From Octopus vulgaris (taxonomy: Eukaryota), in assembly GCA_951406725.2 (NCBI GenBank), contig OX597821.1:47554001-47618000 (forward strand): 64,000 nucleotides of DNA, given 5' to 3'. Shown here piece after piece: positions 2,726 to 55,919 of this stretch. Positions within the stretch are counted from its first letter, which is position 1, and every line of letters begins with the position of its first letter. The notes under the pieces were generated by a model. It was not told where the DNA came from and ran no database searches. It saw only the letters and a program-made list of their open reading frames with translations. Made by a program: the position numbers and the translations under genes.

Positions 2726-3901
2726 TATTGTTGTTGTTGTTGTTGTTGTCTTCAAATAAATGTGATTGATTTCAGACAGCTATAGGTGTCACCTTATTTG
2801 AGCTTTACAAACAGATGAGATATTTCAAATGAGGAATCTGTAGTAAAGAATGGTGTGGGATGTTTGAGAACATAAGCTTTCATGAAAATGGAATGGCTAG
2901 AGGAGATGGCTACTAGTGGGTGGAGAATTATGATGTTTCTCTTTATTCCTCTTTCCTTCATTCCGTCTCTCAATCTTAAACAGTTCACCTAGTCTGTCAA
3001 CAACCTGTCTTCTAGCCCATTATGGCTGACCTATCATTTCTATATTTATATTGATTTATGTTATTTATAAAGATTATTTGTATTAATTCAAAACACGGAT
3101 TATAGATGAATTCTACCTAGTTAACACTATTTATCATATCTTTAAATTTTATGTTTTTCTTTACTATCAAAATTGTTTCCTGCAGCATTTCACATTCCTA
3201 CATAAACTACAGTTACATCCTCCACCACCACCACCACCACCTATACTATTAACTTGTTTCTTAATTTTAATTTCTTCTATTAACAACTAAATTTCTCTTG
3301 TTCATTACTTTCACCCAGTATTAAATTATAATCTCCTTCCTTCCTTTTCTTTTATAAGTCTTATGTTCTCCCAGTATTTAGTTATAATTCTTTCTTAAAC
3401 ATTTGCTGAGACACCATAATTATTCTATCAATACTACCCTTTCTCACATTTAGTCAATTTAATATAAAATATTTCCATTTTCATTTAGAAAACTCTTGTG
3501 CTCTTTCCATTCTTTGCTATAAATTTATCAACTGCCTAACATCTCATTCACTTGAAGGGTTCATGTAGAACGAACTATATAGCCATCCATGAACAAATAT
3601 TTGTTTTAACGAACTTGTGTTTATATATTTACAGATGTATGTGTATGTGTGTCTGTATATGTATATATTTATGGATATATATATATATATATATATATAT
3701 ATATATATATATACGTTATATAATTAGGGTTCAGTAAAATAATTTACTTTACCACACACCGAAATTTTAGAAATAGCAGCCAAAAAAATCTTAGCTATTT
3801 CTTCTACTATAAGAAAAATCTCCCAGACAATGCATACTCAAAAATAATTCACACAGGTATAGAGGGAAAAATAACGAAAGATCACATGTACATAAGATTA
3901 C

Positions 3902-3963
3902 TTGAGAACGGCCGTTTCTGGATTAGTTGAATATAAAGATCAATATTTCCTTCGTCAGCTCAA
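3902..3963 (-). ncRNA. Type-I hammerhead ribozyme motif in inverted PLE terminal repeat
   Basis: Minus strand reads TTGAG-CTGACGA-AGGA...TCCA-GAA-ACGGCCGT-T-CTCAA. This gives a 5-bp stem I (TTGAG/CTCAA), a CUGANGA/GAAA core, palindromic stem III ACGGCCGT and a GUU triplet. Confidence 0.75.
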
Positions 3964-4139
3964 AGATTTCTTTTGATTTGGATTTGAGAGCACTAAAAAT
4001 CGAACATACCCATCTGATATGAGTAATCCCAGACAAACCATCTTCGACCGCTAGAACTAACGAATTCAAAAAGTACAAATGATAATATATATATATATAT
4101 ATATATATATATATATATATATATATATATATGTACATA

Positions 4140-5610
4140 CATCCCTCCCAAAATCAAGGACTTAGAAGACTTTGAAACAGATCTACTGAAGCTTATAAAC
4201 AAAACCAAATTTCATAAATCCTTTTCAATAGAAACTGAAAAAAAACATTAAAAACATAAAAAATTCCAAAACACGGCACTTTTTTTCTGATAAAACCAAA
4301 AACTTATACCTTGTAGACAACAGCACATACTCACAATTTCTACATAACAATGTTATTAATAATTGCACAAAAGCTAGACTGCAATTTATAACGACATTAA
4401 TAAAGGAGCTAGTATCATCGCTGCTAGGTTTAAATTAGATAAAAAATAATAGAAATCCTTCCAAAAAAAGAAACCTTTATAACTATTAAGGGTTTTAAAA
4501 AAAAACTTGCTATCTAATCCTAAATGCAGACTAATTAACTCTGCAAAATCAGAAATGAGATATTTTTTTTTAAATCAATGCTAAAGTTAGAGGGGCAACT
4601 AATTTAGTACAATAGTCCAAAAGTTGAGAAGTTGTAAACTGGTTTAAAGCAATTAGAAATAAGAATAAAGAAAGGTTTGCACAATTTGATATTGTAGATT
4701 TCTATGCATCTATTTCTAGAAAACTGCAAGCAGTTTTACAGAGATTAGTGGACAAGATAAGGATGTAATCCTCCATGTTAGAAAGACCTTACTCTTCAGT
4801 GAAAACATAGAGTGGGCCAAGAGAGCAGACACAAAGGGTTCTTTGAATGTGAGCATGGGGTCATATGATGGAGCAGGCATATGCGATGTCATTGAGCTAT
4901 TCCTGCTTGACACATAAGGAAAAGCTTTTCCTGGAATATATTTCACTATTTATAGGGACAATGTTCTAGCTCTAGCTAAGAATATCAATGGACCAGTACA
5001 AGATCGGTTAAGGAAGGATATTATCCATCTTATGAAAACATTCAATCTTAGCATAACAATAGATACCAACCTGATGGTTGTCAATCTCCTTGATGTATCT
5101 CTTGACTTACAAAAGAATATTTACAAACCCTGTAGAAAATCCAATGATAGACTTAGTTATATTAATATAGGTTCCTTCCACACCCTCCTATAGTGTTCAA
5201 GAATTTAGTTAAGAATATTAGTAGGAAAATTTTTAGCCTCTCCTCCAATATAAACATATTTAATAATGCTGCCCCACTATATAACAATGCCCTTAAAGCT
5301 AGGAGATTTAAAGAGGAAATAGCTTACACACCTACTATTAGGCCAGATATAAAGAAAAGAAAACATAGACACAGGAAAATTATCTGGTTCACACCCCCTT
5401 ACTCCCACGAAGTAACCTTTAATATAGGTAAATATTTCTTGTCACTTATAGATAGACATTTTCCAATATATCATAAATATTGGCAACTCTTTGATAGAAA
5501 TAACCTAAAAATTAGTTTTAGTTCAACCCAAACTTTAAAAACACAGTTTCACACAATGCAACACTAACACAAAGCTGGCTGTTCCTGCAAGGATAAAGAC
5601 TATTTATCTT
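4140..5610 (+). mobile_element. Penelope-like retroelement, decayed reverse transcriptase plus C-terminal linker
   Basis: Across frameshifts the sequence gives DKTKNLY, KCRLINSAKSE, QFDIVDFYASIS, MGSYDGA, IYRDN (decayed YRDD), VNLLDVSLDL and ORF 5193-5567 RKIIWFTPPYS. These are PLE-type RT motifs. Confidence 0.85.
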
Positions 5611-52910: not shown

Positions 52911-54304
52911 CACCTAGGAGCATATTATCAGGCAATATTTTTATCAACTCAGGAAGTTCAGATATTCAGCACAAGTATTGAACTTGGAACATGTTTGAGT
53001 GGAGCTAAACAATATAAACCACCGAGTTTGTTTTCTTCTTGTGTACACCACTTCACTACATTATTTTCTTGTAAGTAATTTGTTTGTGTATTTAGAAAAA
53101 GAAGCAAACTTTTGTTGCTAAATGTTATTTACATATCAAGATTTAATAGCATTGTTTTAAAATAATAGAATGTCTAGATAACGTTGACTACAATGTTTGA
53201 AATAAATGTTTATGGCCCCATCACCAGATTCAAAATGTGAACAGATAAAAATTACCAAACAACAAAAAAATCACCAATGAAACAATTAAAAGTACTTGAA
53301 AGTTATAAAAGTAGTGAAGGAAAACAGTGTTTATTCATTTACAGGAAAAGTAGTAAAATAAAACAATAAATATTATGAATTAATTGCCAATTGATAAATT
53401 TATTTTCAAATCAAAATATCAACCAGTGAAAAGAAATTAGTGTAACATTGACAACTTAACTGCTGTGTTCTTTTTACTTCTTGTGCATATTTTCTTAAAT
53501 CTTTAAAGATTTGGTGCTTCAAGAAGAAAAATAAATGTTATAAAATAATATTTGAAATTTTGAAAGTGAATAGAAAGTTAATTTATCAATATTTGAAAGG
53601 ATGTTTTATTATCACAGCTGGCTGAGCTAGTAAAGAGGAGTTTCAGCTGGATTATTTAGTTGGTGGTTTTGCATCCCATTTTTCAGTATTTCACTGTGTC
53701 TAAGACACATGATTATCTCTGTTTTAGATTGCTTAACTATAAACATGCTATCAGTCAATAGCAAACTTATAGTTATTGATAGGAATAGAAGATAAAGAAT
53801 CTCTGCCTGCCTTTGGACGCCCGCCTTTAGACGCCCGCCTTTGCTCGTCCGCCGGCATCCGCCGCCGAACCATTTGTTCGTCCTCTCTATGTAGGGTTCT
53901 CGCTGATCAGAATAGGTGACTGTATGGAAGGGGTGTTCTCGTCGCTCCTTTCTGCCAACAGGAACCCCCCCCACCCCGGCTTACCGGTGCAAGATCGACT
54001 CTACACAGCTGGCGCATCTCTGAATCTCCGCCCGCGTTCGCCCGCCTTTGGACGCCTGCGTTTGCCCGCCTAATATTTTTAACGGCAGTGAATCAGCATG
54101 GCTGCAGCTCTGAGATGAAACTTTTAAAAAAAAAAAGGTAGATAAAAACTGCTAAAATATTCAGCCTCAGCCCAAAGTCCTCAATTATTTTTGTTATATA
54201 TGCCAATAGATTCAGTCTTTGGATCTGATTATCAACAGTGTGTTTGTGTGTACATCTGATGGCAAGTGTGGAACAGTTCTCCATGTGTAAAATGCACACT
54301 AAAA

Positions 54305-55310
54305 TTCATCATCATCATCATTTAACATCCACTCTCTATGTGGCATGGGTTAGATGGTTTGAATGGAACTGGCAAGCTGGAGAGCTGCACCAGATTCCAG
54401 TCTGATTTGACATGGTTTCAATGGTTGGATGCCCTTCCTAACACCAACCACTCCAGGAATGTAATGGATGCTTTTATGTGCCACCAGCATGGGTATCATT
54501 TACATGATACTGGCAACGACCATGATGATTCATGGGTTCCCTTTCCATAGTACCAGCAACGACCACAACTACAATTCATGGGTGCCATATACATGGCACT
54601 GTCAACAGCCACGACTACAATTCCCAGGTGCCACTTACAAGGCACCAGTGACTGCCCAACTCTGACCACACAGATGTCATTTACATGGCACTGGCATGGC
54701 CACAACTACAATTTCACTTGGCCTGACAAGTCTTCTCATGCACAGCATATCACCAGAGGTCTCGGATACTTGTCATCACCTCCATAAAGCCCATCATTCG
54801 AAGATCATGCTTCACCACCTTGTCCCATGTCTTCCTGGGTCTACCTCTACCACAGGTTCCCTCCTCTATTAGAGACTGCTAGAGATCAGCACTTCGTTAC
54901 ACAGCTGTCCTCATCCATACACATCACATGACCATATCAGTGCAGTCATCTCTCTTGCACACTACATCTGTTGCCTGTTTTCTCTCAAGACACTAACACT
55001 GTTGTACATGCACACTGACATTTCACATCCATTGAAGCACTCTAGCTTCATTGCTTTCAAGCTTATGCATGTCCTCAGCGGTCACAGCCCATGTTTCACT
55101 GCCATGTAGCATAGCTGTTCGCACACAGCCATCATACAGTCTGCCTTTCATTCTGAGGGAGAGACCCTTTGTTACCAACAGAGGTAGGAGCTCTCTGAAC
55201 TTTGCCCAGCCTATTCTTATTCTCACAGCTCTACGCTTGGTGCATTCACCTCCACTACTGACTTGGTCACCTAGATAACAGAAGCTATCAACTAGCTCTA
55301 GCTTAAAATC
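54305..55310 (-). mobile_element. RTE-clade LINE 3' portion
   Basis: LELVDSFCYLGDQVSSGG...RIRIGWAKFRELLPLL...KGRLYDGCVRTAMLHGSETWA, followed by the C-terminus, a 3'UTR and a (GAT)n tail. Confidence 0.9.
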
Positions 55311-55919
55311 AACTATACACAAAAAGAATCGTTTTTTTAAAGCCCTTTCTTCTTAGTTTTCGCTGTGGTCATACTTTAGGTGTGTATACTTATATGAATA
55401 GGTATATATATATATATATATATATTTCATTGTCTGTGACCTTCAATGTTACACTGATGAGTTGAATTAAGACTGAAATGCATATATATAATTGGAATGG
55501 TTTTATAATTATTACTATGAAATAAATATGAGATAGATTCTCCTTGTTACAACAAAATGACAGCTGAACTAATTAAAAAGATTGGGCCTTCTATATTGAA
55601 ATAATCCCATCATTTAATAAAATTTAAAGTAAGTTCATATACGTGTGATGGAAGTTACAAATTTGTTGAAATGAAGTTGACAATCAGGATTAGAATAACA
55701 TACTCTTGCCATCATTATGAGAACGATCTCATACAAGAATTAAAGGTAATCTACTATTTCTATCATTTTACTATTTTCCTCTCATTTGCAATACTTTAGT
55801 TTTATCTCAGTGGTTTCTTGACAATGAGTTTGTGGGAAAAATTGGATTGTGCTATAATCCTAAAAGAATGGCAAAGATAAAATGTTTTGATTGTGAATCG
55901 TTTATTTGTTTCTGTCATT

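What the first reader, a model, noticed from the sequence alone, without database searches (positions are those of the whole stretch)
3552..55485. About eight sequence-diverse minimal hammerhead ribozyme motifs scattered on both strands in one 64-kb window
Seen: CTGANGA...GAAA cores with pairable stems at 3902-3963(-), 10505-10595(+), 10917-10973(-), 20914-20950(+), 27991-28025(+), 33179-33275(+), 50706-50763(-) and 55451-55485(+), plus a very decayed one at about 3552-3582. Most have a 2-5 bp stem I and a self-complementary stem III (ACGGCCGT, ACAGCTGT, ACTCAGAGT, AGC[G>A]CT, ACATGT, AGCAATTGTT, ATGCAT). Each palindrome is different. Known: Penelope-like elements and retrozymes carry minimal type-I hammerheads that cleave as dimers through a palindromic stem III. 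Inference: many independent hammerhead-bearing families coexist here, and the family-specific palindrome could act as a pairing code restricting dimer cleavage to copies of the same family.
Basis: partly seen in the sequence, partly recalled or inferred. Interest (0 to 1): 0.75.

Follow-up and report, generated by a model that had tools for sequence, protein, structure and literature searches.

The report
Scattered Penelope-type hammerhead ribozyme copies
This stretch of an animal genome holds eight copies of a small RNA motif predicted to cut itself, each left by a different family of repeated elements that are likely jumping genes, which is a known arrangement; the proposed family-specific pairing code is not supported, because other families share the same palindromes.

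Summary
Seven of the nine sites are real minimal type-I hammerheads, each from a different multi-copy repeat family. 33179 is unresolved, 3552 is unsupported, and one more real site (34579-34636) was missed. The scan finds 6 motifs against 0.24 in shuffles. Random genomic DNA gives 2.2 per 64 kb, so the window is only about 3-fold rich, in a genome with roughly 7-8 x 10^4 motifs. The 27991 site ends a very young Penelope-like element whose full copy has a hammerhead in both pLTRs around an RT + GIY-YIG ORF. 10917 and 20914 are also tied to Penelope-like ORFs. 3902 looks like a 565-nt non-coding, retrozyme-like unit. This matches Cervera and De la Pena 2014, including their U3-A8 core. The palindrome code fails. 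The 10505 palindrome occurs in 2409 motifs too short to be its family. Of 56 motifs with the 3902 palindrome, 29 are foreign. Sharing exceeds random expectation. A dimer also needs stem I, which insulates only partly. Cleavage was not tested. The scan met the same idea on another genome (e1-8664523) with the same outcome.

The parts
3901..3964 (-). Minimal type-I hammerhead with intact core, palindrome ACGGCCGT and 6-bp stem I. It lies in a copy (3712-4082) of a ~565-nt non-coding unit, between TA repeats
10506..10594 (+). Hammerhead with intact core, long stem II domain, palindrome ACAGCTGT and only a 2-bp stem I. It lies in an older ~400-nt repeat (10457-10855); no parent ORF found
10917..10973 (-). 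Hammerhead with a 9-nt palindrome ACTC(A/G)GAGT. The fragment (10850-10986) is about 82% like the 3' end of a young 717-aa Penelope/Poseidon-like element
20914..20950 (+). Decayed hammerhead (G12 lost; family palindrome AGCGCT), about 80 nt after the end of a broken GIY-YIG-like ORF remnant at 20624-20833
26592..28090 (+). 5'-truncated copy of a very young Penelope-like element: GIY-YIG ORF end at 26594-27016, 93-bp tandem repeat at 27358-27569, 3' pLTR
27975..28042 (+). Hammerhead with U3-A8 core (TTGATAA at 27991), palindrome ACATGT and a long AU-rich lower stem I; identical in 40 of 40 scored copies
34579..34636 (-).
50706..50763 (-). Hammerhead with intact core and decayed palindrome (family ATCAATTGAT), in an older ~410-nt repeat (50376-50785); no parent ORF found
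55451..55490 (+). Decayed hammerhead of an old low-copy family (similarity over 55442-55539); core intact, stems I and III eroded
33179..33275 (+). Unresolved: full core and long stem II, but no palindrome and no relative found; possibly an ancient decayed copy
3552..3582 (+). Not supported as a hammerhead; probably chance
4141..5600 (+). Broken Penelope/Poseidon-like ORF remnant (41-71% identical to the 717-aa ORF of L224); no hammerhead end retained
7999..9594 (-). Broken RT/endonuclease-like ORF remnant of another abundant family, likely Penelope-like by its motifs; not tied to any of the hammerhead sites

Best explanation
The eight sites are separate, mostly truncated insertions of different repeat families, likely all Penelope-like retroelements or their non-coding derivatives, and each carries the known minimal hammerhead, which is predicted to cut RNA only when two copies pair. 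In the predicted dimer, copy A supplies the core, stem II and the 5' strand of stem I. Copy B supplies the other half of the palindromic stem III, the cleavage site and the 3' strand of stem I. The partner is likely the second pLTR or tandem unit on the same transcript, perhaps helped by the element's protein, so proximity would supply most of the specificity. Palindromes likely differ because any self-complementary A...U sequence works, and families inherit or drift among a few common ones. After insertion the copies appear to decay without selection, and most window copies are likely inert.
For: Shown here: motif excess over shuffles. Family alignments keep core and palindrome. Full element L173 has the 27991 hammerhead in both pLTRs around a 781-aa ORF with RVT_1 (E 1.1e-6) and GIY-YIG (E 1.7e-4) matches, both just under Pfam's curated cut-off; the window's own ORF end passes the GIY-YIG cut-off. 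The 10917 type lies about 690 nt after the protein match, on the same strand, in 14 of 25 loci of the 717-aa family search. The 20914 type follows a GIY-YIG-like ORF end. Direct or inverted partial repeats flank many copies. The cofold of two 3902 copies gives intermolecular stems I and III. Palindromes are shared between families. In the two oldest well-sampled families the core is no better kept than the flank (50706: 0.895 vs 0.906; 20914: 0.837 vs 0.872). Literature: PMC4209133 (first 20,000 of 32,700 characters read) reports many motif families per genome, palindromic helix III, the U3-A8 core and low dimer activity. PMC11167929 (passages) reports that an anole PLE hammerhead cuts only with protein and is not needed for insertion in vitro.
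Against: No parent ORF was found for 5 of the 8 families (3902, 10505, 50706, 55451, 34584), so their Penelope origin is inferred from architecture. The 20914 link rests on weak scores (tblastn E 0.002-0.011; blastp E 3e-4) and Pfam found nothing. Pfam also gave no match for the 717-aa ORF; I call it Penelope/Poseidon-like from recalled motifs. Only the 3902 and 34584 dimers folded into a clear double hammerhead at minimum energy; the others did not. No cleavage data exist. Stem I does discriminate: mean 4.4 bp cognate vs 1.1 bp cross among clusters that share a palindrome, so some family insulation by base pairing is real.
Confidence: 0.85

Rival explanations
1. The stem III palindrome is a family-specific code that restricts dimer cleavage to copies of the same family.
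For: The window's palindromes all differ, and predicted self-duplexes are stronger than cross-duplexes for the six families compared.
Against: ACAGCTGT occurs in 2409 motifs whose stem II is too short for the 10505 family (control 2), and 0 of the 30 fetched cluster with 10505 by flank. For ACGGCCGT, 27 of 56 motifs are the 3902 family (my count of the rows). For ACATGT, 17 of the first 100 listed are the 27991 family (5729 matches, control 923). One palindrome is used by 7 of 35 clusters. Sharing exceeds random expectation (33 pairs vs 15.8, P 0.002), the opposite of diversifying selection.
Confidence: 0.04
2. Stem I and stem III together form a 10-15 bp address that has been selected to keep families from cutting each other's RNA in trans.
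For: Among clusters that share a palindrome, cross stem I averages 1.1 bp, and only 4 of 70 cross pairs reach 4 bp, against 4.4 bp cognate.
Against: The scan required a cognate stem I, so cognate values are inflated, and divergence alone gives low cross values. 22 of 30 foreign ACAGCTGT motifs could form a stem I of 4 bp or more with the 10505 substrate strand, better than its own 2 bp. In-cis pairing on tandem transcripts would make such selection unnecessary.
Confidence: 0.08
3. The motifs are chance matches in AT-rich, microsatellite-rich DNA.
For: This fits 3552 and possibly 33179. Single motifs fold no better than shuffles (z from -1.38 to +0.42 for all 8 folded). Loose descriptors give several hits in shuffles (5.4 per window).
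Against: 0 of 200 shuffles reach the window count. Eight sites have genomic relatives with the same core and stems. One sits in both pLTRs of a full element.
Confidence: 0.02

Closest known systems
Minimal and small-palindromic-helix-III hammerheads in pLTRs of metazoan Penelope-like elements (Cervera and De la Pena 2014, PMC4209133; first 20,000 of 32,700 characters read)
   Same: Type I topology, short helix I, palindromic positions 15.2-16.2 and loop 3, many divergent families per genome, mostly single truncated copies, opposite-strand pairs 100-700 bp apart, U3-A8 core variant.
   Different: Host not seen in the parts read. Longer palindromes (6-12 nt) and long stem II inserts. Estimated load of about 7-8 x 10^4 motifs against the 2,000-9,000 quoted there, with different descriptors.
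Dimer-cleaving small hammerhead variants of PLEs (Lunse, Weinberg and Breaker; title and summary seen only through the review PMC6765202, passages; the paper itself is not held)
   Same: Short palindromic stem III and cleavage as dimers, helped by tandem layout.
   Different: I could not check whether it tested heterodimers or covers these families and core variants.
Animal non-LTR retrozymes (PMC7229834, passages; bioRxiv 10.64898/2026.07.22.740005, abstract to methods, first of five parts)
   Same: The 3902 family is a non-coding unit with one type I hammerhead, found as partial head-to-tail repeats. Loads are comparable: more than 6000 motifs in 16 families in a coral, 126,247 in axolotl.
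   Different: The unit is about 565 nt rather than 150-450. No locus had two complete units among the 30 examined. Circular RNA was not shown.
Anolis Poseidon PAc hammerhead (PMC11167929, passages)
   Same: A pLTR hammerhead in an RT + GIY-YIG element, with inserted copies spanning the cut site.
   Different: There cleavage was tested (protein-assisted, dispensable for insertion in vitro); here it is untested.

Membership tests
Minimal type-I hammerhead of Penelope-like elements | Conserved core (CUGANGA or U3-A8 variant, GAAA, UH) in type I order | tested here: met
   Majority of aligned copies in 7 families; in 55451, 4 of the 5 flank-sharing relatives have at most one core change. The window copy 20914 has lost G12. 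Not met at 3552.
Minimal type-I hammerhead of Penelope-like elements | Helices I and II can form | tested here: met
   Stem I 2-6 bp and stem II 3-5 bp in five of the six top hits; 27991 has 1 bp next to the core plus a long lower helix. No covariation statistic was run.
Minimal type-I hammerhead of Penelope-like elements | Palindromic helix III / loop 3 | tested here: met
   Copies with full core and perfect palindrome: 19 of 30 (3902), 13 of 25 (10505), 23 of 25 (10917), 4 of 25 (50706), 2 of 18 (20914), and 20 of 20 (27991). Majority sequence is palindromic in each, and in 34584. Weak for 55451.
Minimal type-I hammerhead of Penelope-like elements | Located in the pLTR of an element encoding RT and GIY-YIG | tested here: inconclusive
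   Met for 27991. Met through an ~82% relative for 10917. Weakly met for 20914. No parent found for the other five families.
Minimal type-I hammerhead of Penelope-like elements | Self-cleavage as a dimer | not testable with these tools
   Only folding predictions. The listed holders were assembled contigs, which cannot show RNA ends.
Animal non-LTR retrozyme (3902 family) | Non-coding repeat unit with one type I hammerhead | tested here: met
   565-nt unit, longest Met-ORF 28 aa; repeat period 563-594 nt in 5 of 30 loci.
Animal non-LTR retrozyme (3902 family) | Two or more consecutive complete units, each with the hammerhead | tested here: not met
   Only partial tandems and inversions within 900 nt on either side in 30 loci.
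Animal non-LTR retrozyme (3902 family) | Expressed as linear and circular unit-length RNA | not tested
Family-specific palindrome code (hypothesis) | Each palindrome is confined to one family | tested here: not met
Family-specific palindrome code (hypothesis) | Heterodimers fail to cleave | not testable with these tools
   Needs an in vitro assay.

The most novel reading that the evidence does not exclude
Tens of thousands of dimer-type hammerheads share a handful of palindromes, so their transcripts form a trans-cleavage network. An abundant family whose stem I strand also fits another family's (22 of 30 foreign ACAGCTGT motifs fit the 10505 substrate with 4 bp or more) can cut that family's RNA, or host transcripts that carry its copies. 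The stem I plus stem III address then evolves under conflict between retroelement families.
Probability: 0.07. Interest if true: 0.65.

Novelty: new member of a known kind. Interest (0 to 1): 0.2.

Why it matters
As it stands this is a known kind of element in a host where I found no hammerhead survey. A search for hammerhead ribozyme plus octopus listed 4 papers; one reports no hammerheads in its Naiad elements and the other three look unrelated by title. A 2026 octopus repeat annotation contains neither 'ribozyme' nor 'hammerhead' in its main text. The useful results are a negative one (the palindrome is not a family code), a load estimate, and natural pairs of families that share stem III but differ in stem I. 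These pairs make the open question of what PLE hammerheads pair with directly testable. The young 27991 element, with identical copies and a full-length parent, is a good intact substrate.

Tried and rejected
Rfam scan: no hammerhead among the 150 of 200 matches shown; these were almost all microsatellite-driven miRNA matches. Single-strand folding z-scores did not separate real from doubtful sites. Relatives of 33179 and 3552 were sought by DNA search and by 2-mismatch patterns; the extra pattern hits (2 and 1) had unrelated flanks. Parent ORFs for 3902, 10505, 50706, 55451 and 34584 were sought by tblastn and phmmer in flanks; the hits were inverted, downstream or seen in only one locus. The RT remnant at 7999-9594 was tested as parent of 10505: 0 of 25 loci carried its hammerhead region, and one had a 33-nt match to the family's far end. 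'Candidates of the first look' are not copy numbers: one search gave 2005 for 3902, but only 27 intact motifs of that family exist by exact pattern. Expression: no RNA holder listed on record; 20 runs hold the 27991 stretch as contigs, with RNA only guessed. Four were laid on L173 and showed no joints and no pile-up of ends, which contigs cannot show. The short hairpin in the abundant SINE-like repeat had no upstream core in view. No stimulatory hairpin was predicted behind the slippery-like site of L172 (z +0.98). Literature: two searches for heterodimer or specificity work on retroelement hammerheads listed nothing relevant by title or abstract start. The key dimer paper could not be read, so I make no claim that the code idea is absent from print. 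Supplements were not opened; those of PMC4209133 may list further families and variants. Rows dropped before the sharing count: 14 of 52 clusters whose representative palindrome was imperfect, L137 and L142 (splits of the 20914 family; L137 is already among the 14) and L283 (likely chance). The script reports 35 left, one fewer than these drops account for, and I did not trace the difference. Some clusters that share a palindrome may be distant relatives. Descriptors lacked one stem II register and missed 10917; one search includes it.
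Full report
Setting. The window is G000:C8:47554001-47618000, in a 2.8-Gb genome. It is 36% GC and full of microsatellites. It looks like an octopus genome; that label comes from my recall of its repeats and from other scan notes, not from a test. It contains broken Penelope-like ORFs at 4141-5600, 7999-9594, 20624-20833 and 26594-27016.

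Observation. All nine stretches are present. A strict descriptor finds 2 sites against 0.015 in 200 shuffles. The final relaxed descriptor finds 6 at score 9 or more against 0.235, and 0 of 200 shuffles reach 6. Looser settings lose this contrast, so I tested each site by looking for relatives. 3902 gave 47 matches from 40 scored candidates; 27 intact motifs of the family exist by exact pattern. 10505 gave 50 matches at about 78-92% identity, 10917 gave 52, 50706 gave 43 and 20914 gave 18. For 27991, 40 of 40 scored candidates were 100% identical. 55451 has three DNA relatives and 5 of 7 pattern hits that share flanks; one locus is in both sets. Alignments show core, stems and a palindromic stem III in the majority sequence, even where the window copy has decayed. 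This matters because these families were collected by homology, not by the descriptor. 33179 and 3552 have no relatives. 33179 keeps a full core and a long stem II and stays unresolved; 3552 lacks core, A15.1-U16.1 and stem I. The scan found one more real site, 34579-34636(-), with 47 matches.

What carries the motifs. The 27991 site ends a 5'-truncated copy starting at 26592. L173 holds a full copy with the same hammerhead at both ends, an ORF1 of about 430-440 aa without Pfam match, and a 781-aa RT + GIY-YIG ORF. Its cysteine linker suggests the Neptune clade (recalled, not tested). The 10917 fragment is about 82% identical to a stretch about 690 nt behind the protein match, on the same strand, in 14 of 25 loci from the search with the 5166-5564 fragment; these are copies of a young 717-aa element. 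The 20914 motif follows a divergent GIY-YIG-like ORF end by about 40-90 nt in several loci and in the window, with weak scores. The 3902 family is a non-coding unit of about 565 nt, seen as partial tandems in 5 of 30 loci and with inverted pieces in 9 of 30, which resembles a retrozyme. No parent was found for 10505, 50706, 55451 or 34584.

Is the window special? Eighty 10-kb stretches at round-number positions chosen in advance contain 27 motifs at score 9 or more against 2.9 in shuffles. That is 2.2 per 64 kb, so the window's 6 has Poisson P 0.023, before allowing for the window having been picked and for motifs arriving in pairs (7 of 20 positive stretches held two). The genome estimate is about 84,000, or about 73,000 from the earlier descriptor (26 vs 5.2). 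Both are rough. Published loads run from about 2,000-9,000 (PMC4209133) and more than 6000 in 16 families in a coral to 126,247 in axolotl (PMC7229834, passages).

Mechanism. Shown: the anatomy, and that the minimum-energy fold of two 3902 copies pairs both stem III and stem I between molecules (likewise 34584, not the others). From the type I topology it follows that copy A recognises copy B through the palindrome plus stem I. Inferred from the literature: cleavage as a dimer, slow, helped by tandem layout (PMC4209133; PMC6765202, passages) or by the element protein, and not needed for insertion in vitro (PMC11167929, passages). After insertion the copies appear to decay neutrally: in the older 50706 and 20914 families the core is no better kept than the flank, while the other three show a small excess that subfamily structure or CpG loss could explain.

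The code idea. From 1.64 Mb of fetched DNA, 159 motif hits (with duplicates from overlapping loci) fell into 52 clusters. Of 35 clusters with a perfect palindrome, 21 share it with another cluster, and ACACGTGT serves seven. Among 23 clusters with 8-mers, 33 of 253 pairs match, against 3.9 expected from 64 options or 15.8 from 16 (P 0.002). Genome counts for three window palindromes agree. ACAGCTGT occurs in 2409 motifs with a stem II too short to be the 10505 family, and the 30 fetched form six flank clusters, none joined to 10505. Of 56 ACGGCCGT motifs, 29 are foreign. For ACATGT, 83 of the first 100 listed are not the 27991 motif, though some are a related subfamily and about a sixth are expected by chance. 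Stem I gives partial insulation (cognate 4.4 bp, cross 1.1 bp, 4 of 70 cross pairs at 4 bp or more), but the scan selected for cognate pairing. There are also clear leaks: 22 of 30 foreign motifs fit the 10505 substrate strand with 4 bp or more, while 10505 as enzyme reaches 2 bp on only 4 of 30. An earlier scan note on another genome reached the same verdict (e1-8664523); I saw it before these tests and do not count it as evidence.

Comparison and verdict. It works like, and for 27991 is, the minimal pLTR hammerhead of Penelope-like elements. 10917 and 20914 are probable members, 3902 is retrozyme-like but fails the two-complete-unit criterion in the loci seen, and the rest are assigned by architecture. 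The U3-A8 core is published (PMC4209133), and U4C is known from viroids (PMC3088659, passages). The dimer paper by Lunse and colleagues could not be read, so variants and heterodimer tests there are unchecked. Verdict: a real feature of a known kind, with the novel hypothesis not supported. Interest 0.2.

Noticed in passing
L172:5105-5183 (-), parent of window 26592-28090: ORF1 and the RT ORF overlap in the -1 frame, with a T TTT TTA heptamer in the ORF1 frame, which suggests a programmed frameshift; an in-frame ATG also follows. L173 lacks 7 nt here relative to contigs of two runs. No stimulatory hairpin was predicted.
   Followed up: partly
L213-L228, e.g. L224:211-2361: A very young Penelope/Poseidon-like family with a 717-aa open ORF has a hammerhead core reading CCGAAGA (U4C) in 9 of 9 copies shown, and YKDD at the RT motif. 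U4C cores head 8 of the 52 clusters, so this variant seems common here.
   Followed up: partly
whole genome; first rows on G000:C1: Mixed cores (C3 with A8, U3 with G8) appear among the ACATGT motifs, alongside C3-G8 and U3-A8.
   Followed up: no
window 10917-10973 and relatives: Stem II pairs with one unpaired base just before GAAA instead of after the CUGANGA box. The centre of the 9-nt palindrome varies (14 G, 10 A, 1 T of 25) while its paired positions do not; CpG loss could explain part of this.
   Followed up: partly
L180-L202 (relatives of window 7999-9594): A recurring motif with a U3-A8-type core, a 5-6 bp stem II and a weak, imperfect stem III lies near these ORFs in 11 of 25 loci; it may be that family's hammerhead.
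   Followed up: no
window 58812-59408 (+): Broken DDE_3 (Tc1-like) transposase ORF.
   Followed up: no
window 49798-50035, 27358-27569, 13690-14018: Tandem repeats with 66-bp, 93-bp and 24-bp periods; the 93-bp one is part of the 27991 element's 3' region.
   Followed up: no
window 31578, 31971, 33777, 42061, 62545 (+); 44066, 48908, 55916 (-): Copies of an abundant SINE-like repeat ending in a short hairpin followed by GAAAC; no hammerhead 5' core seen upstream. I did not scan the window for the split-core hammerheads that other notes report in this genome.
   Followed up: partly
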